This document shows positions 2,960 to 45,396 of a stretch of 64,000 bases of DNA, one piece after another. A program made the translations under genes and the position numbers. The stretch spans positions 561 through 64,560 of the forward strand of contig PMCA01000034.1 in the NCBI GenBank assembly GCA_003153935.1. The letters run 5' to 3'. This stretch comes from Elusimicrobiota bacterium (GTDB lineage: Bacteria; CAYTYR01; UBA6262). The stretch's first letter is position 1. Each line of letters starts with the position of its first letter. The notes below the pieces were generated by a model. That model saw nothing but the letters and a program-made list of their open reading frames with translations, was not told the DNA's origin and ran no database searches.

Positions 2960-3181
2960 ATGATCGGCATAGTTGATAGGATAGAGGATGGTAAGATAGC
3001 GGTTATTAAGATCAGGGGTGGCGGGGAACTGCTGATCCCGGTGAAGAACCTGCCGTTAAAAGTATATGAAGGCGCCTGCCTGGACATCTGCATGTCGCTG
3101 GACCGTAAAGAAGAGACTAAACAGCGCAAGAAAATCAAAGACCTGCAAGAGGACCTGCTGAAAAGAAATGCGAAAAAATAG
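2960..3181 (+). CDS. DUF3006-like small protein
   Basis: MIGIVDRIEDGKIAVI start, C-terminal helix ending ...LQEDL; SD aggag; this family is commonly found next to ComEC-type MBL genes. Confidence 0.75.
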   Translation: MIGIVDRIEDGKIAVIKIRGGGELLIPVKNLPLKVYEGACLDICMSLDRKEETKQRKKIKDLQEDLLKRNAKK

Positions 3182-4037
3182 CCGTTTATTAATTATAGTA
3201 TTCTTTTTCCTGCTCTTACCCCTCCATCTTAGCGCCCAAAACCTAACCGTTACTTTTATCGATGTCGGCCAGGGTGATAGTATTCTATTGGAAACACCTA
3301 TTGGCCATAATATCCTTATCGATGGCGGAGGGACCCCAGCCTGGCGCAAGCACGCTTATAATATAGGCGCTTTGCGGATCGCTCCGTTGTTGAGAAAAAA
3401 GCAGATAAAAATGCTGGATAAAGTCATCTTGACCCACGGGCACGCCGATCATGTGGAAGGCCTGCTGGATATAATCAGCCTTTACCCGGTAAAAGAAGTT
3501 ATTGACACCAGGGAGGGCGGCGGCAGCGCGGATGATGAGTATGTAAAGTTCCTGGAACTGGTCAAAGAAAAGAAGATCCGCTACCGGGTGGTTAAAGAGG
3601 GGGATGTACTGGAGCTTGATCCTGACCTGAGCGTGTGGGTATTAAATCCCCCAAATAAATTAAGTTATAACAATGCTAATGATAATTCCCTGGTGCTGCA
3701 GGTAGTGTATCGCCAGGTTAGCTTTTTACTGGCGGCGGATATCGGCCAGACCGCGGAAAGGCGCCTGGTTGGAAGATATGGAGCAGCGATACATTCGCAA
3801 GTGCTAAAGATAGCGCATCACGGCTCGAAGACTTCATCCTGCGCCAGTTTCCTGGATGCAGTCAAGCCGGAGCTGGCGGTAATATCCTGCGGACGGAACA
3901 ATACTTTTGGGCACCCTCATCCGGATGTTATCAAAAGATTGAAACGCAAGAAGATACAGTACCTCAATACAGCCTATCAGGGAAGCATAACGGTAACCAC
4001 TAATGGCGAGAATTTCCAGGTCAAAACTGAATATTAA
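3168..4037 (+). CDS. Exported ComEC/Rec2-type metallo-beta-lactamase-fold hydrolase (no Competence channel domain)
   Basis: FIDVGQGDSIL, LIDGG, THGHADHVEG (HxHxDH), NDNSLVL, LLAAD, KIAHHGSKTS, NTFGHPH; N-terminal signal peptide ending LSA. Confidence 0.9.
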   Translation: MRKNSRLLIIVFFFLLLPLHLSAQNLTVTFIDVGQGDSILLETPIGHNILIDGGGTPAWRKHAYNIGALRIAPLLRKKQIKMLDKVILTHGHADHVEGLLDIISLYPVKEVIDTREGGGSADDEYVKFLELVKEKKIRYRVVKEGDVLELDPDLSVWVLNPPNKLSYNNANDNSLVLQVVYRQVSFLLAADIGQTAERRLVGRYGAAIHSQVLKIAHHGSKTSSCASFLDAVKPELAVISCGRNNTFGHPHPDVIKRLKRKKIQYLNTAYQGSITVTTNGENFQVKTEY

Positions 4038-4617
4038 AATTGTTATTCTGGGGCTATTAATTTGCGCGGCCCCGGCTCAGGCGGCGGAGGCGGTATCTGT
4101 AACCAAAGTTGAGATACTCAACCAGGATGTAAACCCCAGCGCTAATATAGTTCTGAACGATATTATGGCGATCAGGGAAATAAAAATAAAGGGAGACATC
4201 AAAACCGGGAATATTAGTCTGTCCTACCCTGATTATATCAACAAGCAGGGCCGGTCCATACCACAAGTGGAGATAGTTAATGAATCCCTGGCGAAAACAA
4301 TAAGGCAGGCGATAGTAACGGGCGCTCCTTCCCAGCAAAAACAAGTTGACTTTAATTATAAAATTGCTAAAATAAGCTTATTAAGACAGAAGGACCAGCA
4401 CCTAAAGGCTTTTGTGTCGGTTTTTTTCAATGCCGCCATAAAGGTGGAAGCCCGGGTAATGGAATCGAAAACGGGATTGTGGGTAGCCTGGCCGGGACGC
4501 AAGGGTAGCAGTGGCAAGTGGCAGGACCAATTTAAGATATTGGATTATCCTGCCAGCCAGAAGTTAGACAACATGATTGTTGAAAAATATAAAGTAGTGC
4601 GCAGTGAGGAGCCCTGA
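4003..4617 (+). CDS. Signal-peptide protein with two tandem SpoVG-like domains
   Basis: Signal peptide KIVILGLLICAAPAQA; second domain LKAFVSVFFN..IKVEARVMESKTGLWVAWPGRK...WQDQFKIL...KLDNMIVEKY follows the SpoVG pattern; first domain is a more diverged repeat. Confidence 0.7.
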   Translation: MARISRSKLNIKIVILGLLICAAPAQAAEAVSVTKVEILNQDVNPSANIVLNDIMAIREIKIKGDIKTGNISLSYPDYINKQGRSIPQVEIVNESLAKTIRQAIVTGAPSQQKQVDFNYKIAKISLLRQKDQHLKAFVSVFFNAAIKVEARVMESKTGLWVAWPGRKGSSGKWQDQFKILDYPASQKLDNMIVEKYKVVRSEEP

Positions 4618-4620
4618 TAC

Positions 4621-5412
4621 ATGAACCTGTTCTGGCCGGTGTTTGAGAACCTGGTAATGCCTTTTATCGCGGGGCTTTTTTATTTTTTCCTGGCCCGTTA
4701 TATCGCCTATATCGCCCCGTTAAGGAAGCTGGTCACCGGTGATATCACCTATAAGGGAGCTTTCTGGGGTTTTATCTTCTTTGGCTTGTTCCTGATGACA
4801 CGGCCTCTGCAAATCGCGCTGGGGCCGCACCCAATGTCATTGATCGTGAACGATATCCGGGAATTTATCATGATCGGGTTGTTCGCGCCGGCGGTGTTCG
4901 TCGGCTTGACCAGTTTTGCCCTGGGTTTCGAGAATATAAGGAAACAAACAGTTTTGCTGGTTTTTGGTCTTGGCATTGCGCTGGCCGTCACTTTCTGTAT
5001 AGTAAACAGATTAGCTATCGGCGGCTCAATGGAGATCTTCAGGATAGGGAATTACTCGTTTTACGATGGTAAGTGGTTCGATTCATCAAATCCCGATTCC
5101 CACCTGATGCCGATACTTTTTATTATCCGGGTTACTGACCCGGTTCTGTTTATGATCATGCTGGGGATTTTCTGTTTCTGGCGCGCCATAGTTTTTCCCA
5201 AGAACAGCGTCTATGACAATATGCCGGCAAAACTGGTATTCCAGGGATTGGCAGTGATGAGCTTCGGCCTGAGCATGCTGTTCACCGGGTTCATGGCGGT
5301 CATCTGGAACATCCCCAACCAGTGGTGGATATATTATTTAGGAGCGATCCTGGCCGGTGTATTTGAATCGGTCAGCCTGAGTTTCCCTTTACATAAAGAA
5401 CAGAAGATATAA
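4621..5412 (+). CDS. Stand-alone 7-transmembrane protein of unknown function
   Basis: Seven hydrophobic segments, long loop between TM4 and TM5, no cytoplasmic output domain. Confidence 0.75.
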   Translation: MNLFWPVFENLVMPFIAGLFYFFLARYIAYIAPLRKLVTGDITYKGAFWGFIFFGLFLMTRPLQIALGPHPMSLIVNDIREFIMIGLFAPAVFVGLTSFALGFENIRKQTVLLVFGLGIALAVTFCIVNRLAIGGSMEIFRIGNYSFYDGKWFDSSNPDSHLMPILFIIRVTDPVLFMIMLGIFCFWRAIVFPKNSVYDNMPAKLVFQGLAVMSFGLSMLFTGFMAVIWNIPNQWWIYYLGAILAGVFESVSLSFPLHKEQKI

Positions 5413-5445
5413 TCCGCCTTCGCTAACGCTATGGCGCGATAAACT

Positions 5446-5479
5446 CCATGTTATGTTAATAGCATGGTGTTTTTATTTT
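5446..5479 (+). terminator. Probable intrinsic terminator
   Basis: ccatgttat-gtta-atagcatgg stem (one G-U pair) followed by tgtttttatttt. Confidence 0.6.
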
Positions 5480-5497
5480 GCCCTAAGAAAGCCGTAG

Positions 5498-7345
5498 ATG
5501 AAAATTATCAAAGTATTAACCTTGAGTTCCGCCATATTTTCAGGAATGCTGCTGTCCAGTGCTTACGGTTTGGACTTGAATAAAGCAACATACCAGGAAC
5601 TGCTGTCTTTACCCGGCATTAGTAAATTCCAGGCGTATAAGATAAATGAATACCGGGAAATATTCGGGTATTACCGGTCCCTGAATGAATTATTGAAGGT
5701 AGAAGGGGTGGGCCAGGAAGATGTGCAGGCTTGGCAGAGCTCCCTGGTGATCACGATTCCGGAGACAACCATTAAGCCGAAAGTGTCAGTGAGATTAAAA
5801 GACCAGCAGGTCAGGGGAGCGGGCGGCGGGAACTTCCAGTCACTGCATATGAAGGTGAAGGACCTGTACCGCTGCTGGTCAGCCGGACTGTTAGTGGAAG
5901 GGTACCGGCACTATATAGAATATGACATAGATGGCAGTCATGCCATGAACGGAGAATGGGACCCAACGCCCCGGTTGAACAAATTCTATCTCTCCTGGAC
6001 TCCGCATGGGGTAATTGACAGTATTTACTTCGGCGATTACCTGGCGGGCTTTGGTGAAGGGGTGGTAATGGATATCAGCGGCCGCTCCAAACCGCAGGGG
6101 CTTTATCCCGGTGACACCCCGGCTATGGAATATGACACGGCTAAGATTTCCGACCATTCGCTATTGAACGGTATTTCTCACCGGTCAACTAAGAGCTTTA
6201 GAGGTGTGGCGGCAGTGCTGGACCAGACCTATATCAAGGAAACGATTTTATATTCCAACAAGAATAATTCCTATTACGGGTTCTATGTGGAAGATGACCC
6301 TTTGAGAAAACCGCTGGAAGACTATTTTTCCGAGCAGGTGACCGGCCTGGATGTTACCGGGTTTGTTTTGGGTGAAACCGAAGTGGGAGTAACTTCTTAT
6401 TATTCAACCCGGAATGTCAAAGGCCCTGACCCCTGGCGCTATCCTGCAGGCAACAAGGATTTCCTGGTTTACGGGGCCCATGGATCTACTTACCTGGGAC
6501 GGTTTAATCTTTGTGGCGAGTTAGGTAAGGTAAAGGATCACGGCCAGGCCCTGTTTGTGGAAAGCAGCAGCAATTTCGCCAACCTCAATGTTTCTGCCAG
6601 TTTCCGGCAGTATGATATTGATTATACCAATCCTCATGCCGGCGTTTACTCTATCCATTACCCGCAGAGCGTGTTCCGCTGCCGGGATGAAAAAGGCGTT
6701 TTACTTAAAATGAAATGGCAAGTGTTCAGCATGTTCGGCCTGAACGCCTTCTTTGACCAGTATATTCACCAATACCAGGCTTATTGGAATAAAAGCAAAG
6801 GCGATTACGCTATCTCTGCCGGCAAGAAGGAAACCGACCGGGAATCCGGTATTGAAAGCAAAGCCGTTGTTATGAAGAAAGTTATAATAAATACCGGAAT
6901 ACGTTACAAGGACAATAATATTTACCAGAATTCGGGCAGTGAAAAGATAAACATCTCCAACAAGGTGACCTATGTCCCCAATGAAAAGATAGAAACATCG
7001 GTAAAATATTATATACGTCACTATATTTATCAAAGCGCGGATTACAGCCCCTATGATTATATGACCGTGGCCTTATCATATCAGGTCGCCAGGGCCTGCG
7101 AAGTAGAGGGCACGGTAAAATATGCCAACATCTTTGTTTACCAGAACAGCTCCGGGATCGGCGAATATACAGTCGGCTGTCACTATAAAATAAATGACGA
7201 AATAAAAATGAATATAAGCTACACCGCCATGCCGCCTCTGGCCAAGAACTCCAGTTATGAATTCGAGGAAGAAGCGGACCTTTTGCCCTACGCCGACGCC
7301 TATTATCAAGATAAATTAGTCGCTGAAGTTGTCTTTCACTGGTAA
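5498..7345 (+). CDS. ComEA-type helix-hairpin-helix domain fused to a predicted outer-membrane beta-barrel
   Basis: Signal peptide; DLNKATYQELLSLPGISKFQAYKINEYREIFGYYRSLNELLKVEGVG (HHH_3); YFGDY..GFGEG and FRGVA motifs; aromatic-rich alternating strands; ends in VVFHW. Confidence 0.75.
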   Translation: MKIIKVLTLSSAIFSGMLLSSAYGLDLNKATYQELLSLPGISKFQAYKINEYREIFGYYRSLNELLKVEGVGQEDVQAWQSSLVITIPETTIKPKVSVRLKDQQVRGAGGGNFQSLHMKVKDLYRCWSAGLLVEGYRHYIEYDIDGSHAMNGEWDPTPRLNKFYLSWTPHGVIDSIYFGDYLAGFGEGVVMDISGRSKPQGLYPGDTPAMEYDTAKISDHSLLNGISHRSTKSFRGVAAVLDQTYIKETILYSNKNNSYYGFYVEDDPLRKPLEDYFSEQVTGLDVTGFVLGETEVGVTSYYSTRNVKGPDPWRYPAGNKDFLVYGAHGSTYLGRFNLCGELGKVKDHGQALFVESSSNFANLNVSASFRQYDIDYTNPHAGVYSIHYPQSVFRCRDEKGVLLKMKWQVFSMFGLNAFFDQYIHQYQAYWNKSKGDYAISAGKKETDRESGIESKAVVMKKVIINTGIRYKDNNIYQNSGSEKINISNKVTYVPNEKIETSVKYYIRHYIYQSADYSPYDYMTVALSYQVARACEVEGTVKYANIFVYQNSSGIGEYTVGCHYKINDEIKMNISYTAMPPLAKNSSYEFEEEADLLPYADAYYQDKLVAEVVFHW

Positions 7346-8197: not shown

Positions 8198-8923
8198 ATG
8201 CGCATTGCATATTTAGATTGTTCCAGCGGGGTTAGCGGCGATATGCTGCTGGCGGCTTTGCTGGATGCCGGGATCGAGATAGCCGATTTAAGGAAAGTGT
8301 TAGCCAAATTAGATATTTCGGGATACTCTATCAGCGTCAAGAAAGTCAGGAAGGGCGCTCTCCTCGTTTCCCGGTTAGAAGTAAGAATTACTCGCCATCA
8401 GCATTTCCGCAGTTACCAGGATATTAAAAGCATAATCCAGAACAGCCGGATAAGCCCCGCGGTAAAAATAACAGCCATAAAAATATTAAGGAAACTGGGA
8501 CAGACCGAAGCCAAGGTGCATAAGTGCCGGCTGGAAGAGGTACATTTCCATGAGATCGGCGCCGTGGATACCATTATCGATATCGTGGGGACGGTTTGGG
8601 CGCTGTCCAGGCTGAAGATCGGGAAGATTTACTCTTCCCCGGTGAACGTGGGCTCAGGGACGGTAAGAACGGCCCATGGCATACTGCCGGTGCCGGCACC
8701 GGCTACTGCGGCGTTGCTTAAAAATATCCCCACTTACAGTTCCGGAATAAAACAGGAACTGGCTACGCCTACCGGCGCGGTACTGGTCTCAACTCTTAGC
8801 CATAGTTTTGGACACTTGCCGGAAATGAGGGTGCTGGCGGTAGGAAACAGCTGCGGCAGCCGTGAGGTTCCCGGTCATGCCAACCTGTTCCGGGTGATAA
8901 TAGGGCAAAAGGGTAAAAAGTAA
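8198..8923 (+). CDS. larC: Nickel insertase LarC, N-terminal domain only (241 aa)
   Basis: YLDCSSGVSGDMLLAAL, VHFHEIGAVDTIIDIVG, AHGILPVPAPAT, ELATPTGA; ends after NLFRVIIG. Confidence 0.85.
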   Translation: MRIAYLDCSSGVSGDMLLAALLDAGIEIADLRKVLAKLDISGYSISVKKVRKGALLVSRLEVRITRHQHFRSYQDIKSIIQNSRISPAVKITAIKILRKLGQTEAKVHKCRLEEVHFHEIGAVDTIIDIVGTVWALSRLKIGKIYSSPVNVGSGTVRTAHGILPVPAPATAALLKNIPTYSSGIKQELATPTGAVLVSTLSHSFGHLPEMRVLAVGNSCGSREVPGHANLFRVIIGQKGKK

Positions 8924-8986: not shown

Positions 8987-9403
8987 ATGCTGAATTCGGC
9001 CAGAGCAAAGATACTGAAGAATGAACATGGTTTCTCCATGACCTTTATTTTCCTGGTCCTGGTTATTGTTTTGGTGGTGGCCTGGATCATTCCCAGCTAT
9101 CTGAAGATCCATAACATGGCTCAGCAAAAAGCGACCAGGGGAGATCTGGATAACCTGCGTAAGGGCATAAACCTCTTTTTCCTGCAGCGCGGGCGGTATC
9201 CTTACAGCCTGGAAGATCTTGAACCGAATTTCGTCCATCCTTTCCCGCAAGTTCGCTTGGGTCTACCCGGCTATCCTGAAACGCGCCAAGTCACCAGGGT
9301 GTTGGTGGATTCAGGTATGTGGTTTTATGATGAAAATACGGGAGAAGTTAAGATAGATTGCTCAACCAAAGATCGTGACGGCGAAGTCATCAAAGACTGG
9401 TAG
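8987..9403 (+). CDS. Type IV pilin / GspG-like pseudopilin with atypical N-terminus
   Basis: Basic leader, G|FSMTF followed by a hydrophobic helix; LDNLRKGINLF...GRYPYSLEDL resembles the GspG alpha1 region. Confidence 0.65.
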   Translation: MLNSARAKILKNEHGFSMTFIFLVLVIVLVVAWIIPSYLKIHNMAQQKATRGDLDNLRKGINLFFLQRGRYPYSLEDLEPNFVHPFPQVRLGLPGYPETRQVTRVLVDSGMWFYDENTGEVKIDCSTKDRDGEVIKDW

Positions 9404-10453: not shown

Positions 10454-11950
10454 ATGAAAATATTATTAGCCGGATATAATTTAGATACAGACGTCATCAA
10501 AGACCTGACTAAGGGCGATCCGCTGCGTGCCGATGTCACGCCGGAAACCCTTTCCGCCGCTTACGCGCGCATCAGCCGGGATCCCCGCCCGGTGGATGAA
10601 CTGCGGCAGGCCGCCCGCGCCGAAGTAGAGAACGCCCGCAAATCCAACAAAAGCATTATCTTCAAGATGGGGCATCATTCCGTCGCCGAACACGCCGTCT
10701 TTAATTTCGACATTATCGGCGTCTCCCGCCTGGCCCTGGAAGAGCTGGAAAAATTCCGCCTCTGTTCCTATACCGAAAAATCCCAGCGTTACATCACCCT
10801 GGCCGATGATTACATAATCCCGCAGGAATTGAAGATGAGCCAGTTCATCAGGGAATACACCGCGACCATCCAGCTGCAGAATGATTTTTATAAGCGCGCT
10901 TTTGAGGCCCTGAAAAATTACATTAACTACAAGCACCCGGAAGAGGCCAAGGATCCCAAGAAGCAGATCCTGCTGGAGGGCTGGGCCAAGGAAGACGCCC
11001 GTTACATCACCAGTCTGGCCACCGCCGGCCAGTTAGGGGAAACGATTAACGCCCGTAACCTCGAACTGGTCATCAGGCGTTTTGCCAGCCATCCTCTGCG
11101 GGAAGTGCAGGAGATCGGCCGCAAAATGTACAACCTGGTCGCCGGCGTTGCACCCTCGATCATCATATTTACCGAAGCCAACGAATTCGACCAGAAAACC
11201 TATCCGGCGTTAAAACATTTGAGTGAAACTATCCTGCATGCCAAGCAGATAGTGCCTGAGTCCTATCCAGGGGAGGTCAGCCTGGTGGATTACAGCCTGC
11301 ATGGGGACGACCTGCTGGTGGCTTCCATGATGCATACCACCAGTAAGATCCCGTACCGGCAATGCCTGAACTTGGTGCGGTTGCTGAAACCCGAACAGAA
11401 GAAGGAATTTATCAAAACTGCCTGCCAGCACCTGCAGTTATATGACTCCACTTTACGGGAGTTTGAATATCCGTCCATGACCTTTGAGCTGAATATGTCG
11501 GCGAGCTGTTTCGCCCAGTTCAAACGGCACCGTTTAGCCACTATTACTACCCAGGAATATAATCCTGACCTGGGCGTGGTCATACCTCAGGCTATCAAGG
11601 AAGTCGAAATGGACAAGGAATTCAAGGAAATTATCGACAAGACCAATGAAGTATATAAGAAGATATACGCTTCATTCCCATTAGCCGCGCCTTATATCCT
11701 GACTAACGCCCACCAGCGCAGAGTCCTTACGAAAGTGAACGCCCGGGAGCTATATCACATGTCCCGCCTGCGGGAAGATGAGCACGCGCAGTGGGAGATC
11801 AGGCAAAAGACCGCCAAGATGAGCGAGCAGGCCAAGAGGGTTATGCCCCTGACCATGCTTTTGATGGGCGGCAAAGACTCCTACCCTAAAGTTTACGAGC
11901 AGGAATTCGGCCATCCTCCGAAAGTAGTCAACCCGGTTCTTCCCACCTGA
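10454..11950 (+). CDS. thyX: FAD-dependent thymidylate synthase, tandem two-domain form
   Basis: GHHSVAEHA, SYTEKSQRY, EDARY, NARNL (domain 1); KRHRL, NARELYHMSRLREDEHAQWEIR (domain 2). Confidence 0.88.
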   Translation: MKILLAGYNLDTDVIKDLTKGDPLRADVTPETLSAAYARISRDPRPVDELRQAARAEVENARKSNKSIIFKMGHHSVAEHAVFNFDIIGVSRLALEELEKFRLCSYTEKSQRYITLADDYIIPQELKMSQFIREYTATIQLQNDFYKRAFEALKNYINYKHPEEAKDPKKQILLEGWAKEDARYITSLATAGQLGETINARNLELVIRRFASHPLREVQEIGRKMYNLVAGVAPSIIIFTEANEFDQKTYPALKHLSETILHAKQIVPESYPGEVSLVDYSLHGDDLLVASMMHTTSKIPYRQCLNLVRLLKPEQKKEFIKTACQHLQLYDSTLREFEYPSMTFELNMSASCFAQFKRHRLATITTQEYNPDLGVVIPQAIKEVEMDKEFKEIIDKTNEVYKKIYASFPLAAPYILTNAHQRRVLTKVNARELYHMSRLREDEHAQWEIRQKTAKMSEQAKRVMPLTMLLMGGKDSYPKVYEQEFGHPPKVVNPVLPT

Positions 11951-42122: not shown

Positions 42123-43073
42123 ATGACCCAGTACAGCGTAGGGGTTGACCTTGGGGGCACTAATATCACTATTGCTCTGGTTGACGCCAAGGGAAATATC
42201 AAGAATAAAGTTAAGATCTCAACCCAGATAGATAAAGACGCGGGTTTCGTGATCAAGACCATTATCGAGAACATCAAACTGATAATCAAAGATGTCAGTG
42301 TTAAGAAACTGATGGGAATAGGGATCGGCGCCGCCGGCCAGATCGATCATGAGAACGGAGTTATCCAGTTCTCGCCTAATCTGCACTGGCGCAATGTGCA
42401 CATTGTCAAAGAGATTCGCAGTAAATTCAAGCTGCCGGTTGCAATCGATAATGACGCTAACGTAGCCTGCTACGGGGAATTCATGTTCGGCGCGGGCCAG
42501 GGGGCCAATAATGTTATCTGCGTAACCCTGGGGACTGGTGTGGGCGGCGGTATCATCATTGACCGTAAGATCTACCGCGGGGTTAACGGCAGTGCCGGAG
42601 AGATCGGCCATATTACGGTGGAAAGCAATGGCCGCCGGTGTAACTGCGGCAATCGCGGCTGTATGGAAGCTTATGTAGGCGCGCCTCATATCAAGGAGCG
42701 CGCTATCGAAAAGATCAAGAGCGGCCGCCACAGCATAATTGTTAAGCTGGTAAATGGCAGTCTGAACAAGATCACCCCTAAGAGATTGGAAGAAGCGGCA
42801 CTGTACAGGGATAAATTAGCTCTGGAAATATGGCAGGAGACCGGTTTTTACCTGGGTACCGGTTTAGCGAGCTTGATCAATATCCTTAATCCCGAAAAGA
42901 TCATCATCGGCGGTGGCGTGGCCAATGCCGGCAAACTTATATTTGATCCCTTGCTGAAGACCATAAAGGAGAGGGCTTTGCCGGTTTCCTGGCAGGATAC
43001 CAAGATCGTGCGGGCTAAATTGGGAGAAGATGCCGGCGTTATCGGCGCGGCTATGCTGGTTAAATACAGTTAG
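42123..43073 (+). CDS. ROK family sugar kinase (glucokinase-like)
   Basis: GVDLGGT, DNDAN, TLGTGVGGG, GEIGH, CNCGNRGCME. Confidence 0.9.
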   Translation: MTQYSVGVDLGGTNITIALVDAKGNIKNKVKISTQIDKDAGFVIKTIIENIKLIIKDVSVKKLMGIGIGAAGQIDHENGVIQFSPNLHWRNVHIVKEIRSKFKLPVAIDNDANVACYGEFMFGAGQGANNVICVTLGTGVGGGIIIDRKIYRGVNGSAGEIGHITVESNGRRCNCGNRGCMEAYVGAPHIKERAIEKIKSGRHSIIVKLVNGSLNKITPKRLEEAALYRDKLALEIWQETGFYLGTGLASLINILNPEKIIIGGGVANAGKLIFDPLLKTIKERALPVSWQDTKIVRAKLGEDAGVIGAAMLVKYS

Positions 43074-43089
43074 GCCTCAAGGAGCCGTG

Positions 43090-45396
43090 ATGAAACCTAA
43101 TATGGCCTGTAAAATATCCGGCATATTAGCAATTTATTTTATAATGGTTTTTGCCCCATCGGTACTTAGCGCCGCGTCTGGTACGCAGGACGCGCCCATA
43201 GACCTGACGGCGGATTACCTGGAATACCAGAAGGGAAACGACCTGGTTTACGGCCGGGGCCATGTGGTGGCTGTTTCGCGGGATATGTCCCTGGCTTGCG
43301 ATGAGATATACGTGCAGGTAAAGGATGAGACCCTGCAAGCCAAAGGCCATGTGACCGGCCATGACCAGAGCCAGGAACTTTCCGGTGACGAGCTGGAATA
43401 TAATTTGAAAACCAAAGTTGGTAAAATAGTCAAGGGCACTGCTAAATTTGGGCAGGTCTTTGTGCGCGGGCCGGTAATGGAGCGGCAGGGCCCCGACAAA
43501 ATGTATGTCCCTAAAGGATATTTTACTACCTGCGACCTGGCGGAACCGCATTACCGGATCACGGCCAGCCGGATCTCTATTTACCCGCAGAAGAAAATTA
43601 TTTGCCATAACGCGTTCTTTACTATCGGTGATCTGCCGATCTTTTATATGCCGGCTTATTACCAGTCTTTGAAAAAGCAAAAATATTATATCAACATGGC
43701 CTTCGGGCATGACTCCACCGAAGGGGATTTCCTCAAGGTAATATACGGCTATCCCCTGACTGAGCATACCTATGGGCGCCTGTATCTGGATTATTTTTCC
43801 CGGTTGGGCTGGGGCAAGGGCGCGCAGTTTGATTACAACTTCCCTGACCGGATGGTCGGCTCCCTGTATTATTATTACATCAACCAGAGAGCTAATATCG
43901 ATCCGCCGGTTACCGCAGAGGATACCAGGAAGATCTATACCTTCACCCATTGGCAAAAATTTCCGCAGAATTGGATCGCCCAGGCCAATGCCAAGGTTAT
44001 GACCGATGAAAGTTTTAACCAGGTCACCAGCGAGCAAGACTACCGTCAGGTCACCAATGATATCACCTCTTACCTGGCTTTAAGCAAAACCGCGCCGCTC
44101 TACACTTTCCGGGTGTTGGGTGAAAGGCACGACCTGTTCAGCAGCGCTACCCAGAAATATATGCCGGATTACGTGTACGCGCCGAGGCTGTCCCTGACCA
44201 CCAACCAGTTGCGCTTGCCCTGGAGCGTTTCCTTGAGGGCGCCTTTATATATGAGTTTCAGCCTGGATACGAAACGCGGTTACACCTCGTCCCAGGGGCT
44301 GTACATTTGGGATGGCACTTCGCAGTTAACTCTGACCAGCATCCTCAACCTCAACTGGATGATGTCTTTAACGCCGAGCTTGGGGATAAACGAGAGTTGG
44401 CAGGACAAGGTCAGCGCGCTGGACCTCAGGAAATTGTATCGCACGCAGTATTTTACCAACTTGAATTTAAGGACCCGGCTTAGCCGCTATGTGGACTGGG
44501 ACCTGGGACATTATTACAGTGAAGAGATAAGATCAACTCCGGAGGATTTGCGGGGTGTTCTCACTAATCATGTGACCACGGCCCTGGAGTTCAGGATGGC
44601 CCGAAGGGGCCAGGCAACACCACCGCCACCGCCGACGATGACCGAGGCCACTTATAATCAACTGCAGGGACAAACGCCGAACCTGGTACAAGTATCGAGC
44701 GGCACGGTTAGCCAGCCGTACGTAGTGTATCCTTCGACTGCAGCGGTATCAATTTCCACCTGGACGGTAAATGTCCCGGCAAGAGTGGCGCCCATCGCGC
44801 CCATGTCGCAATTATTGAGATTCCGGACCAGCACCGGTTATAATCTTATCAACCGGCAACAATATTTCAGGTTAAGCGGATTATTCCTGGAGAACCGCAA
44901 GGCCAGATTTGATAACCTAGTCAATACCTTAACCATAACGCCGACTATTTGGATAAGCTTGGCGGCCACCGAAGAATATAGCTTTTTGACGACTGATAAC
45001 CAAAGGGTAACCACCGATATGAGGGCGTGGGGCAACAAGTTCGACAGCGCGGTTCAGGCCACGTTTCTGAAGAGCACACCAGGCCAAGTCGATGTGCAGA
45101 ATGACGCCGGCTTGTGGTTGACCGCTAATTGGAAGCTTAATTTTCACCTGCGCTATACATTGTTCAATGATAATATAATGATCACCAAGTCCCAGCTTAC
45201 GGAGAGGGGAATAACGCTGTACCGGGACCTGCATTGCTGGGAAGTGACATTTTCCTGGCGTAAATTGCCGCTCAGCGAAGAGGCCTGGATCCGCTTTAAC
45301 TTGAAAGCGTTCCCTGCCCAGTCCATCGCCGGTTATCACAATGAACAAATAATTGGGGATACGCAAACCGAAGAATGGAACATCAGGAGAAGATAA
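43090..45396 (+). CDS. LptD/OstA-like outer-membrane assembly protein
   Basis: Signal peptide; beta-jellyroll start (IDLTADYLEY..GHV), FTTCDLAEPHY, PIFYMP, YRDLHCWE near the C-terminus. Confidence 0.78.
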   Translation: MKPNMACKISGILAIYFIMVFAPSVLSAASGTQDAPIDLTADYLEYQKGNDLVYGRGHVVAVSRDMSLACDEIYVQVKDETLQAKGHVTGHDQSQELSGDELEYNLKTKVGKIVKGTAKFGQVFVRGPVMERQGPDKMYVPKGYFTTCDLAEPHYRITASRISIYPQKKIICHNAFFTIGDLPIFYMPAYYQSLKKQKYYINMAFGHDSTEGDFLKVIYGYPLTEHTYGRLYLDYFSRLGWGKGAQFDYNFPDRMVGSLYYYYINQRANIDPPVTAEDTRKIYTFTHWQKFPQNWIAQANAKVMTDESFNQVTSEQDYRQVTNDITSYLALSKTAPLYTFRVLGERHDLFSSATQKYMPDYVYAPRLSLTTNQLRLPWSVSLRAPLYMSFSLDTKRGYTSSQGLYIWDGTSQLTLTSILNLNWMMSLTPSLGINESWQDKVSALDLRKLYRTQYFTNLNLRTRLSRYVDWDLGHYYSEEIRSTPEDLRGVLTNHVTTALEFRMARRGQATPPPPPTMTEATYNQLQGQTPNLVQVSSGTVSQPYVVYPSTAAVSISTWTVNVPARVAPIAPMSQLLRFRTSTGYNLINRQQYFRLSGLFLENRKARFDNLVNTLTITPTIWISLAATEEYSFLTTDNQRVTTDMRAWGNKFDSAVQATFLKSTPGQVDVQNDAGLWLTANWKLNFHLRYTLFNDNIMITKSQLTERGITLYRDLHCWEVTFSWRKLPLSEEAWIRFNLKAFPAQSIAGYHNEQIIGDTQTEEWNIRRR

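What the first reader, a model, noticed from the sequence alone, without database searches (positions are those of the whole stretch)
2960..7345. Candidate non-canonical DNA uptake or salvage locus spanning both membranes
Five co-oriented genes, four of them closely packed: DUF3006-like protein; exported ComEC-type MBL with an intact HxHxDH site; exported tandem-SpoVG protein; stand-alone 7TM inner-membrane protein; ComEA HhH fused to an outer-membrane barrel. Three have nucleic-acid binding or cleaving folds and carry signal peptides, so they would act outside the cytoplasm. The ComEC Competence channel domain is missing. Hypothesis: the barrel and HhH capture DNA, the SpoVG pair binds it in the periplasm, the MBL degrades it or one strand, and the 7TM protein senses or transports. 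A pilin-like gene lies 1.6 kb downstream. A terminator-like hairpin at 5446-5479 suggests the barrel gene may be regulated separately.
Basis: partly seen in the sequence, partly recalled or inferred. Interest (0 to 1): 0.78.

Follow-up and report, generated by a model that had tools for sequence, protein, structure and literature searches.

The report
Exported DNA-handling gene cluster in Elusimicrobiota
An uncultured Elusimicrobiota bacterium places an exported ComEC-type DNase next to an exported double SpoVG protein, a receptor-like seven-helix membrane protein and an outer-membrane barrel carrying a ComEA DNA-binding domain. Comparison with relatives shows two or three separate modules brought side by side, not one proven DNA-uptake machine.

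Summary
All five genes and their domains are real and at the stated coordinates. They are DUF3006; a Sec-type exported stand-alone ComEC-C-terminal MBL with every catalytic residue; an exported tandem SpoVG; a 7TM protein; and a ComEA-type HhH fused to a ~24-strand outer-membrane barrel.

The single five-gene machine is only partly supported. In close Elusimicrobiota relatives at least 20 genes, housekeeping ones included, are collinear, and tight packing is genome-wide, so neither argues for a functional unit.

At greater distance the set splits.
- **DUF3006 + exported MBL** is an independent two-gene module. It also occurs on many Bacillota plasmids and a haloarchaeal megaplasmid.
- **SpoVG2, 7TM and barrel** recur together once more in a different context, there without the HhH. 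Each also occurs alone.
- **The 7TM protein** is homologous to the sensor module of membrane-bound AraC regulators and has a GPCR-like bundle. It resembles a receptor, not a known transporter.

Most likely reading: a periplasmic DNase module sits next to a lineage-specific envelope trio that binds nucleic acid, serving DNA degradation or salvage. Function is inferred, not shown. The parts are novel (exported SpoVG, HhH-barrel); the system is unproven.

The parts
2960..3181 (+). DUF3006 protein (73 aa). It has no signal peptide, so it is cytoplasmic. Its stop overlaps the MBL start by 14 nt.
   Evidence: PF11213 E 4e-15. 30% identical to a Geobacillus plasmid DUF3006 that sits next to a ComEC-type MBL. 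The pairing is seen in Bacillota, a haloarchaeon and Elusimicrobiota.
3168..4037 (+). Exported stand-alone ComEC-C-terminal-type metallo-beta-lactamase-fold nuclease (289 aa). The predicted signal peptide is aa 1-23 (nt 3168-3236).
   Evidence: Lactamase_B 5e-18. ComEC_Rec2 model positions 424-663 only. PDB ComEC beta-lactamase-like domain E 1e-55. H90GHADH95, D191 and H217H218GS220 are conserved, matching the residues shown to be essential in PMC12455585.
4003..4617 (+). Exported tandem SpoVG protein ('SpoVG2', 204 aa). Signal peptide aa 1-27, N repeat about aa 30-108, C repeat about aa 116-204. The mature protein has pI 9.5.
   Evidence: Pfam SpoVG on the C repeat, 9e-14. N repeats are SpoVG-like. 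The basic doublet R166-K167 aligns with the K50-R51 pair of staphylococcal SpoVG and is invariant (PMC3688583). pI.
4621..5412 (+). Stand-alone receptor-like 7TM inner-membrane protein (263 aa). Inferred topology is N-out, C-in, with a periplasmic beta-hairpin at aa 136-150.
   Evidence: AlphaFold2 pLDDT 87.7. The only Foldseek matches are GPCR bundles, and they are weak. Homologous (E 1e-14 to 1e-4) to the N-terminal 7TM of 7TM / GGDEF_2-like / AraC-HTH regulators. 75-83% identical among relatives.
5446..5477 (+). Intrinsic-terminator-like hairpin plus T-run between the 7TM and barrel genes.
   Evidence: Scan hit. Free energy -14.1 kcal/mol, z -4.4, 0 of 200 shuffles as stable. Conserved in L026 and partly in L009.
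5498..7345 (+). Outer-membrane protein (615 aa). Signal peptide aa 1-23; ComEA-type HhH domain aa 24-79 (nt 5567-5734); barrel of about 24 strands from aa 97 to 615 (nt 5786-7342).
   Evidence: HHH_3 4e-13. ComEA structures 8dss, 8dfk and 2duy. AlphaFold2 barrel model, pLDDT 61. Foldseek matches only ushers, TonB-dependent receptors and AlgE. Terminal W or F is conserved. The family is small: 18 proteins.

Best explanation
The region is a lineage-specific juxtaposition of separable modules that all act on nucleic acid outside the cytoplasm. It is not one conserved five-gene machine.

**Module A, DUF3006 + MBL.** This is a self-contained and widely mobile pair. The MBL is exported by Sec and works in the periplasm as a metal-dependent DNase, like the ComEC C-terminal domain. 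DUF3006 stays in the cytoplasm. It is inferred to neutralise or chaperone the nuclease before export.

**Module B, SpoVG2 + 7TM + barrel.** This is an Elusimicrobiota-restricted envelope trio.
- The barrel sits in the outer membrane with its ComEA-type HhH domain at the periplasmic mouth, where it would hold DNA.
- The basic tandem SpoVG protein binds nucleic acid in the periplasm.
- It docks on the conserved periplasmic loops of the receptor-like 7TM protein.

**Together in this lineage.** DNA that reaches the periplasm is captured and degraded to nucleotides for salvage, or to clear foreign DNA.

**Shown:** domain identities, catalytic and DNA-binding residues, export signals, the predicted folds, and which genes stay together.

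**Inferred:** every activity, the DUF3006 role, any contact between SpoVG2 and 7TM, passage of DNA through the barrel, and the salvage purpose.
For: **MBL.**
- It is a ComEC C-terminal-domain homologue with all essential residues.
- That domain is an extracytoplasmic Mn-dependent endonuclease and 5'-3' exonuclease (PMC8579336, PMC12455585).

**Module A independence.**
- 223 plasmid records carry a similar MBL and 108 carry a DUF3006.
- In all 12 accessions visible in both lists the two genes are adjacent or within about 0.5 kb.
- Examples: Geobacillus, Clostridium and a Haladaptatus MBL-LTD fusion followed by DUF3006.
- The Geobacillus MBL also has an N-terminal signal sequence.

**Module B.**
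- SpoVG2, 7TM and a barrel-family ORF recur in L011 behind mtnP, cdd and a HAD hydrolase gene instead of proB, DUF3006 and MBL.
- That barrel ORF is the only further ORF of 200 aa or more, in the seven loci tested, to reach over 30% HHalign probability against the barrel profile.

**DNA-binding features.**
- The SpoVG2 C repeat keeps the basic doublet needed for DNA binding (PMC3688583), and the mature protein has pI 9.5.
- The HhH domain matches ComEA DNA-binding domains.

**7TM.**
- It is homologous to sensor modules of AraC-type regulators.
- Its invariant residues R61, P62, Q64, G135 and W235 fall in the predicted periplasmic loops.

**Transcription.** A conserved terminator-like hairpin separates the 7TM and barrel genes.
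Against: - No activity was tested.
- In the close relatives everything is collinear, housekeeping genes included. Tight packing is genome-wide. The A-B juxtaposition may therefore be historical accident.
- Module B rests on one independent context (L011). There the barrel lacks the HhH domain and is detectable only by profile-profile comparison (probability 74%, E 2.6e-5).
- Each Module B gene also occurs without the others within 10 kb (L012, L013, L014, L018, L004, L023).
- The HhH domain is acidic, pI 4.7.
- The stand-alone 7TM has only about 9 cytoplasmic residues at its C-terminus and no output domain.
- The barrel model has modest confidence, pLDDT 61.
- The salvage hint from the L011 neighbours (mtnP, cdd) is a single observation in a tightly packed genome.
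Confidence: 0.45

Rival explanations
1. All five proteins form one trans-envelope DNA uptake or salvage machine: the barrel and HhH import DNA, SpoVG2 binds it, the MBL degrades one strand or all of it, and the 7TM protein transports or senses the products.
For: - All five genes are adjacent and co-oriented in every close relative.
- Three of the proteins carry export signals and nucleic-acid folds.
- Together they cover the outer membrane, periplasm and inner membrane.
- Pilus-independent DNA uptake that depends on an outer-membrane barrel and a periplasmic HhH protein has a genetic precedent in Riemerella (PMC8459023).
- comEA is not among the competence genes reported as conserved in Elusimicrobia (PMC8809381).
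Against: - The five are never found together outside a lineage where flanking housekeeping genes are equally conserved in order.
- DUF3006 + MBL travels alone in other phyla.
- L011 has the trio without the nuclease pair.
- The 7TM protein has a receptor-type fold, not a transporter fold.
- Variable genes are inserted between the 7TM and barrel genes in relatives: ankyrin, LTD and PorV/Q-like.
- A terminator-like element precedes the barrel gene.
Confidence: 0.15
2. There is no system. The five genes are functionally unrelated neighbours kept together only by inherited gene order in a compact, single-strand-biased genome.
For: - The whole region from L21 to polA is collinear in relatives at 40-83% protein identity.
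- 33 of 63 adjacent gene pairs overlap or lie within 10 nt.
- The barrel gene even overlaps larB, an unrelated cofactor gene.
- Each gene is found alone elsewhere.
Against: - SpoVG2, 7TM and a barrel-family gene recur as neighbours in a different context in L011.
- DUF3006 + MBL recurs across domains of life.
- Three exported nucleic-acid-related proteins lying side by side is unlikely by chance.
Confidence: 0.25
3. Split ComEC. The exported MBL is the detached nuclease subunit of a canonical transformation apparatus. This organism's ComEC, encoded elsewhere, would lack the beta-lactamase-like domain. The HhH-barrel would stand in for ComEA, so the locus serves natural transformation rather than degradation.
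For: - The MBL is closest to ComEC C-terminal domains.
- ComEC versions lacking this domain are common, with repeated gains and losses (PMC6299819).
- Elusimicrobia conserve comEC, comF, comM, dprA and recA, but comEA is not listed (PMC8809381).
- A pseudopilin-like gene lies 1.6 kb downstream.
Against: - No ComEC, DprA or ComF was found among the window's ORFs near the cluster or its ten large ORFs that were scanned, or in the sequence recovered beyond the window: about 4.7 kb upstream and 1.5 kb downstream.
- The rest of the genome could not be searched.
- The same MBL + DUF3006 pair sits on plasmids of Bacillota whose chromosomal ComEC normally has its own MBL domain. That last point is from my own knowledge of Bacillus ComEC.
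- Nuclease activity of the isolated domain is weaker without the cis OB fold (PMC12455585).
Confidence: 0.15
4. The barrel, and perhaps the trio, belongs to a surface-protein secretion or attachment pathway related to type IX secretion, not to DNA handling. The HhH domain would have a non-DNA role.
For: - PorV/PorQ-family outer-membrane proteins sit immediately upstream of the barrel gene in L003 and L004.
- LTD and Big-domain proteins with T9SS-like C-terminal sorting domains lie nearby in L003, L005, L007, L014 and upstream of this window.
- The HhH domain is acidic.
- The L011 barrel has no HhH domain.
Against: - The window itself has no PorV/Q or LTD gene next to the barrel gene.
- The HhH domain is a clear ComEA-type match and is kept in distant members P0016 and P0087.
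- LTD domains are themselves fused to this MBL type in a haloarchaeon, which points back to nucleic-acid processing.
Confidence: 0.08

Closest known systems
ComEC/Rec2 C-terminal beta-lactamase-like nuclease domain (Moorella ComEC domain; PDB 30bt, 9ic4; B. subtilis ComEC)
   Same: Same fold and sequence family (E 1e-55). All metal-binding and catalytic residues are present. The location is extracytoplasmic.
   Different: It is a stand-alone 289-aa protein with its own signal peptide. It has no Competence channel and no OB fold. It is paired with DUF3006. It has a canonical HxHxDH motif, whereas the Moorella glycerini ComEC domain described in PMC12455585 has HxDxDH.
ComEA (periplasmic or membrane-anchored DNA receptor of natural transformation; PDB 8dss, 8dfk, 2duy)
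   Same: The HHH_3 double helix-hairpin-helix DNA-binding domain, and an extracytoplasmic location.
   Different: Here the domain is the N-terminus of a 615-aa outer-membrane barrel, not a small soluble or inner-membrane-anchored protein. The domain is acidic (pI 4.7). It scores far below the comE family cutoff.
SpoVG (cytoplasmic DNA- and RNA-binding regulator of Bacillota and Borrelia)
   Same: The SpoVG domain, with the basic doublet essential for DNA binding conserved in the C repeat.
   Different: It is exported through a signal peptide. Two SpoVG domains sit in one chain. The N repeat lacks the doublet. The gene is adjacent to a 7TM membrane protein gene.
Riemerella anatipestifer pilus-independent transformation genes (outer-membrane barrel RA0C_RS04915 plus HhH protein RA0C_RS02645; PMC8459023)
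   Same: An outer-membrane beta-barrel and a periplasmic HhH DNA-binding function are used in place of a secretin. This is the nearest precedent for how the barrel might work.
   Different: In Riemerella the two functions are separate proteins and the barrel has a carboxypeptidase-regulatory domain. No sequence relationship was tested. Here the two functions are fused.
7TM receptor modules of bacterial signalling proteins (7TMR-DISM type; 7TM / GGDEF_2-like / AraC-HTH regulators)
   Same: A homologous 7TM bundle (E down to 6.5e-14), with the C-terminus in the cytoplasm where the output domains attach in the fusion proteins.
   Different: There is no output domain at all. It falls below the Pfam 7TMR-DISM_7TM threshold. 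It is as conserved as housekeeping proteins.
Secreted nuclease plus cytoplasmic inhibitor pairs (barnase-barstar, NucA-NuiA) and extracellular DNases used for nucleotide scavenging (Vibrio Dns and Xds). These comparisons are from my own knowledge.
   Same: An exported nuclease is encoded next to a small cytoplasmic protein, and extracytoplasmic DNA degradation is the likely outcome.
   Different: The folds are unrelated. Inhibition by DUF3006 is pure inference.

Membership tests
ComEC/Rec2 (TIGR00361) | Transmembrane Competence channel domain (PF03772) | tested here: not met
   The match covers only model positions 424-663 of 663, at 174 bits against a cutoff of 190. Pfam finds only Lactamase_B. 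The ORF is 289 aa.
ComEC/Rec2 (TIGR00361) | N-terminal OB fold (DUF4131) | tested here: not met
   No Pfam hit in this protein or its neighbours.
ComEC-type beta-lactamase-like nuclease domain | MBL fold with the metal and catalytic residues (H598, D600, D602, H603, D700, H725, S728 in Moorella glycerini numbering) | tested here: met
   Alignment to 30bt_A, E 1e-55. H90, H92, D94, H95, D191, H217/H218 and S220 are present. Residue list from PMC12455585.
ComEC-type beta-lactamase-like nuclease domain | Mn2+-dependent DNase activity | not testable with these tools
   Needs a biochemical assay.
DUF3006 (PF11213) | Domain match above the gathering score | tested here: met
   56.2 bits against a cutoff of 32.3.
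DUF3006 + ComEC-type MBL gene pair | Adjacency of the two genes in unrelated genomes | tested here: met
   Window. Geobacillus, Clostridium and Haladaptatus records. 12 of 12 shared plasmid accessions have the genes adjacent or near.
SpoVG (PF04026) | Domain match above the gathering score | tested here: met
   C repeat 51.8 bits against a cutoff of 29.6. The window's N repeat is below threshold (15.5 bits). The orthologous L011 N repeat is above it (34.7 bits).
SpoVG (PF04026) | Conserved basic doublet required for DNA binding (K50-R51 in S. aureus) | tested here: met
   R166-K167 aligns to the K-R pair of staphylococcal SpoVG and is invariant in six orthologues. It is absent from the N repeat. 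Requirement from PMC3688583.
SpoVG (PF04026) | Small single-domain cytoplasmic protein | tested here: not met
   Signal peptide plus two domains, conserved in all ten orthologues.
ComEA (TIGR01259 / TIGR00426) | HHH_3 DNA-binding domain | tested here: met
   PF12836 49.7 bits against a cutoff of 27. PDB ComEA hits down to 7e-7.
ComEA (TIGR01259 / TIGR00426) | Whole-protein family score and small-protein architecture | tested here: not met
   41 bits against a cutoff of 152, and 30 bits against a cutoff of 53. The domain is fused to a barrel region of about 520 aa.
Outer-membrane beta-barrel proteins | Signal peptide, closed antiparallel barrel and C-terminal aromatic residue | tested here: met
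   AlphaFold2 gives about 24 strands at pLDDT 61. Foldseek returns only outer-membrane barrels, with TM-scores about 0.4. The terminal residue is W or F in all 16 family members whose C-terminus is present. Confidence is moderate.
TonB-dependent receptors / fimbrial ushers | Plug domain and TonB box, or usher plug and periplasmic domains | tested here: not met
   No Pfam Plug, TonB_dep_Rec or Usher hit at E 0.1 or better. The structural similarity is generic, with rmsd 10-14 A.
7TMR-DISM / 7TM receptor modules | Match to PF07695 or PF16927 | tested here: not met
   No Pfam hit for the window protein. A distant fused relative scores 21 bits against a cutoff of 29.
7TM sensor module of membrane-bound AraC-type regulators | Full-length homology of the 7TM region | tested here: met
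   phmmer E 6.5e-14 to 1e-4 over query residues of about 6-250 against 530-680-aa proteins that carry GGDEF_2 and HTH_18/AraC domains.
7TM sensor module of membrane-bound AraC-type regulators | Cytoplasmic output domain | tested here: not met
   The protein ends about 9 residues after TM7.
Known membrane transporters | Fold similarity to a solved transporter | tested here: not met
   All 50 listed Foldseek matches are GPCR bundles (E 0.009-0.09); no listed match is a transporter.
Anti-phage defence systems (PADLOC) | Matches to defence-system proteins beyond a generic MBL | tested here: not met
   Only the MBL hits defence MBL models, partially. The other four proteins have no hit.
Type IV pilus / T2SS pseudopilin (gene at 8987-9403) | Prepilin leader with G-F-x-x-x-E and a family score above cutoff | tested here: inconclusive
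   GspG 30 bits against a cutoff of 89. The sequence reads ...EHG/FSMTF..., with no Glu at position +5.

The most novel reading that the evidence does not exclude
SpoVG2, the 7TM protein and the barrel form a previously undescribed envelope-spanning apparatus. A ~24-strand outer-membrane barrel with a built-in ComEA domain would be the DNA entry channel, independent of any secretin or pilus. An exported tandem SpoVG would shuttle nucleic acid across the periplasm to a GPCR-like 7TM receptor. The mobile DUF3006 + MBL nuclease would have been recruited as the degrading activity. This would be the first extracytoplasmic role for the SpoVG fold and a new route for DNA across a diderm envelope.
Probability: 0.15. 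Interest if true: 0.85.

Novelty: new variant of a known kind. Interest (0 to 1): 0.55.

Why it matters
How DNA crosses the outer membrane without a PilQ secretin is poorly understood. Genetic evidence exists in Riemerella (PMC8459023). An outer-membrane barrel with a fused ComEA domain is a concrete, testable candidate channel.

An exported tandem SpoVG would extend a family known only as cytoplasmic regulators to the periplasm.

The DUF3006 + exported ComEC-type nuclease pair is frequent on Bacillota plasmids and also occurs in archaea, yet has no described function. It may influence extracellular-DNA turnover, transformation or plasmid competition. No paper in the searched library mentions DUF3006.

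If the genes are only neighbours, the value is in the annotation: three uncharacterised families now have fold-level and context-level assignments.

Tried and rejected
- **7TM as a nucleoside or vitamin-type transporter.** I considered this because of the salvage genes in L011. I rejected it because all 50 listed Foldseek matches are GPCR bundles and none is a transporter, and homologues are sensor modules.
- **Defence system.** PADLOC gives only generic MBL hits.
- **Barrel as a TonB-dependent receptor or usher.** There is no Pfam support and only generic barrel similarity.
- **Structured RNAs or tRNAs in the region.** None.
- **ComEC, DprA or ComF nearby.** None among the 20 ORFs scanned, or in the sequence recovered beyond the window, about 4.7 kb upstream and 1.5 kb downstream. 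The 788-aa ORF at 43030 looks like LptD, not ComEC.
- **DUF3006 in the PDB.** Only insignificant hits.
- **Window DUF3006 tblastn against plasmids.** No match. A Geobacillus DUF3006 had to be used as the bridge.
- **Literature.** No paper was found on exported SpoVG or on HhH-barrel fusions.
- **First locus search with the diverse 7TM alignment.** It failed because no stretch was conserved enough.
- **Metagenome scan for SpoVG2.** Only four short contigs.
- **Profile search for more barrel relatives.** Only two were added.
- **hmmsearch for the L011 barrel.** It missed it; only HHalign detected it.
- **Lipoprotein signal for SpoVG2.** I rejected it because the Cys is not in a lipobox and is not conserved.

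Full report
**1. What is there**

The window is a compact stretch of an uncultured Elusimicrobiota genome. Every gene-sized ORF is on the + strand. Related contigs carry Elusimicrobia or Elusimicrobiota titles.

Family scans confirm each domain call:
- **DUF3006:** 4e-15.
- **MBL:** Lactamase_B 5e-18. It matches only the last third of the ComEC/Rec2 model, positions 424-663 of 663, E 3e-51.
- **SpoVG:** 9e-14 on residues 123-197.
- **263-aa membrane protein:** no family.
- **615-aa protein:** HHH_3 at residues 23-79, E 4e-13, with nothing matching the remaining 530 residues.

Downstream lie larB, a larC1-type gene, a weak GspG-like pseudopilin gene, HAMP and PilZ genes and thyX. Upstream lie L21, L27, obg and proB.

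**2. The individual proteins**

*MBL.* It aligns over its full mature length with solved ComEC beta-lactamase-like domains (30bt_A E 1e-55; 9ic4_A 3.5e-55).
- It keeps H90-G-H-A-D-H95, D191 and H217-H218-G-S220. These are the positions whose mutation abolishes nuclease activity and transformation (PMC12455585).
- That domain is an extracytoplasmic Mn-dependent nuclease (PMC8579336).
- The protein starts with a typical Sec signal, MRKNSR-LLIIVFFFLLLPL-HLSA|QN. Orthologues only 57-60% identical keep one too.

*SpoVG.* It has a signal peptide followed by two SpoVG-like repeats.
- Five of six orthologous N halves have SpoVG as their best or only Pfam hit. One is above threshold (2e-8).
- HHalign of the N halves against the C halves gives E 8.5e-5.
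- The L011 orthologue hits the Pfam model in two stretches.
- The C repeat keeps the basic doublet R166-K167. It aligns with the K-R pair of staphylococcal SpoVG that is required for DNA binding (PMC3688583). It is invariant in orthologues.
- The mature protein has pI 9.5.

*7TM protein.* It gives a confident AlphaFold2 model: pLDDT 87.7, seven helices and an extracytoplasmic beta-hairpin.
- Its only structural neighbours are GPCR bundles, and they are weak: E about 0.01, TM-score 0.45-0.57.
- An exhaustive HMMER search found 65 relatives. They are stand-alone proteins of about 260 aa and proteins of 530-680 aa in which the same 7TM region is the N-terminus.
- The longer proteins are AraC-type regulators with a GGDEF_2-like domain. 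One also hits 7TMR-DISM_7TM and HisKA_7TM weakly.
- It is therefore a receptor-type module with no output domain.
- It is 75-83% identical among relatives, the same as Obg and ProB. SpoVG2 and the barrel are only 40-49% identical.

*Barrel protein.* Its HhH domain matches ComEA DNA-binding domains (8dss 7e-7, 8dfk, 2duy).
- The rest is modelled as a barrel of about 24 strands at modest confidence, pLDDT 61.
- It resembles only large outer-membrane barrels: ushers, TonB-dependent receptors and AlgE, with TM-scores about 0.4.
- The terminal residue is W or F in all 16 family members whose C-terminus is present.
- The HhH domain is acidic, pI 4.7, which calls for some caution.

**3. Are the five genes a unit?**

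Close relatives (L001, L003, L005-L010, L025, L026) keep the five genes in order. They keep the whole region from L21 to polA in order as well, so this synteny does not discriminate.

Tight packing does not discriminate either. 23 of 63 adjacent pairs in the window overlap and 10 more are within 10 nt. The barrel gene overlaps larB.

Relatives insert variable genes between the 7TM and barrel genes:
- an exported ankyrin-repeat protein in most;
- an LTD protein plus a PorV/PorQ-family outer-membrane protein in L003.

A stable hairpin plus T-run follows the 7TM gene (-14.1 kcal/mol, z -4.4). It is conserved in L026 and partly in L009.

At greater distance the set dissolves:
- In L012 and L013 (7TM 45-50% identical) the 7TM gene sits between glyS and a pilB/gspE-type ATPase gene. 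No SpoVG, MBL or barrel lies within 10 kb.
- In L018 a SpoVG2 (40% identical) is followed by unrelated genes.
- Distant barrel relatives (25-27% identical) stand alone. One (P0016) follows a PorV/Q-like outer-membrane protein. One (P0087) lies between a peroxiredoxin and a TonB-type receptor.

**4. Two modules emerge**

*Module A: DUF3006 + MBL.*
- tblastn finds similar stand-alone MBLs in 223 plasmid records. A Geobacillus DUF3006, 30% identical to the window protein, is found in 108 records.
- In all 12 accessions visible in both lists the two genes are adjacent or within about 0.5 kb.
- Annotated examples are Geobacillus, Clostridium and a Bacillus plasmid where an SLH-domain protein precedes DUF3006.
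- In the haloarchaeon Haladaptatus, an MBL-lamin-tail-domain fusion is followed by DUF3006.
- The Geobacillus MBL also carries a signal sequence. DUF3006 never does.
- The pair is thus an old, mobile, self-sufficient unit. I infer, without a test, that DUF3006 is a cytoplasmic inhibitor or chaperone of the exported nuclease.

*Module B: SpoVG2 + 7TM + barrel.*
- In L011 (7TM 63%, SpoVG2 34% identical) the two genes overlap. They follow mtnP, cdd and a HAD hydrolase gene instead of proB, DUF3006 and MBL.
- The ORF that follows them runs off the contig. It has a signal peptide and no HhH domain.
- It aligns collinearly with barrel-family residues 161-344 (HHalign 74%, E 2.6e-5).
- It is the only further ORF of 200 aa or more, in the seven loci tested, that exceeds 30% probability.
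- This is one independent recurrence, which is suggestive but thin.

**5. How it most likely works**

I favour a juxtaposition of a periplasmic DNase module with an envelope trio that binds nucleic acid (confidence about 0.45).
- The ComEA-type domain would hold DNA at the periplasmic mouth of the barrel.
- The basic SpoVG2 would bind it in the periplasm.
- SpoVG2 would dock on the conserved periplasmic loops of the 7TM receptor-like protein. The invariant residues R61, P62, Q64, G135 and W235 fall there.
- The MBL would degrade the DNA.
- PMC12455585 notes that the isolated ComEC nuclease domain works better with a DNA-binding OB fold in cis. A separate DNA-binding partner such as SpoVG2 would fill that role here. 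This is inference.

The rivals are:
- the full five-gene machine (0.15);
- mere neighbours (0.25);
- a split ComEC serving transformation (0.15). It cannot be tested without the whole genome. No ComEC was found among the window ORFs scanned or in the short stretches recovered beyond the window;
- a type-IX-like surface-protein pathway (0.08).

**6. Comparison with known systems, and novelty**

The MBL works like the ComEC C-terminal domain but is not a ComEC, because the channel and OB fold are absent. The HhH domain is ComEA-type, but the protein is not a ComEA. The SpoVG protein belongs to the family by domain but breaks its cytoplasmic, single-domain architecture.

The nearest functional precedent for an outer-membrane barrel combined with an HhH function in DNA uptake is the pilus-independent system of Riemerella (PMC8459023). 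Elusimicrobia are reported to conserve comEC, comF, comM, dprA and recA, with comEA not listed (PMC8809381).

I found no literature on DUF3006, on exported SpoVG or on HhH-barrel fusions.

The parts are new variants of known folds. The system-level claim remains unproven.

Noticed in passing
window 43030-45396 (+): A 788-aa ORF with no Pfam hit. Its sequence has a signal peptide, an OstA-like start and a long beta-rich C-terminal part. It looks like a very divergent LptD.
   Followed up: partly
window 10454-11950 (+): ThyX is 498 aa, about twice the usual length, with Thy1 as its only family. It appears to be a fused double ThyX and is conserved in relatives at 495-498 aa.
   Followed up: no
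window 8198-8923 (+): LarC covers only profile positions 1-236 of 375 (LarC1-type split form) and follows larB. The larB ORF overlaps the end of the barrel gene by 17 nt.
   Followed up: no
window 1-64000: All of the roughly 64 gene-sized ORFs are on the + strand and cumulative GC skew rises monotonically. 33 of 63 adjacent pairs overlap or lie within 10 nt.
   Followed up: partly
L001 7281-7937; also L005-L008 and L010: An exported ankyrin-repeat protein (218 aa) lies between the 7TM and barrel genes in most relatives. It is absent from the window, L009, L025 and L026.
   Followed up: partly
L003 5665-7998; L005 3-4923; L007 1-1886; L014 168-2474; L029 1196-4493 (upstream of this window): These Elusimicrobiota carry PorV/PorQ-family outer-membrane proteins next to LTD or Big-domain proteins with T9SS-like C-terminal sorting domains. 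In L003 and L004 such a protein sits immediately upstream of the HhH-barrel gene.
   Followed up: partly
L011 5312-6186: A barrel-family relative without the HhH domain lies directly after SpoVG2 and 7TM. Upstream are an MTA phosphorylase, a cytidine deaminase and a HAD hydrolase.
   Followed up: yes
L019 2923-3994; L022 282-1728; L028 2875-4580; L021 2607-4207: An exported ComEC-type MBL and DUF3006 form a recurrent pair on Bacillota plasmids and a haloarchaeal megaplasmid. The MBL is variously fused to LTD or (by annotation) SLH domains. No function has been described for the pair.
   Followed up: yes
L025 252-1659: In one contig carrying the same SpoVG2 protein as L026, the MBL is 255 aa and is preceded by a methyltransferase gene instead of DUF3006. 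This is either a rearrangement or an assembly chimera.
   Followed up: no
P0042-P0085: A family of 530-680-aa regulators with the architecture 7TM / GGDEF_2-like / AraC-HTH shares the 7TM module of the window protein. Their ligands and taxonomy were not examined.
   Followed up: partly
window 8987-9403 (+): The pseudopilin-like protein has a degenerate prepilin motif (...EHG/FSMTF..., no Glu at +5). It is followed by HAMP and PilZ proteins, and all three are conserved in relatives.
   Followed up: no
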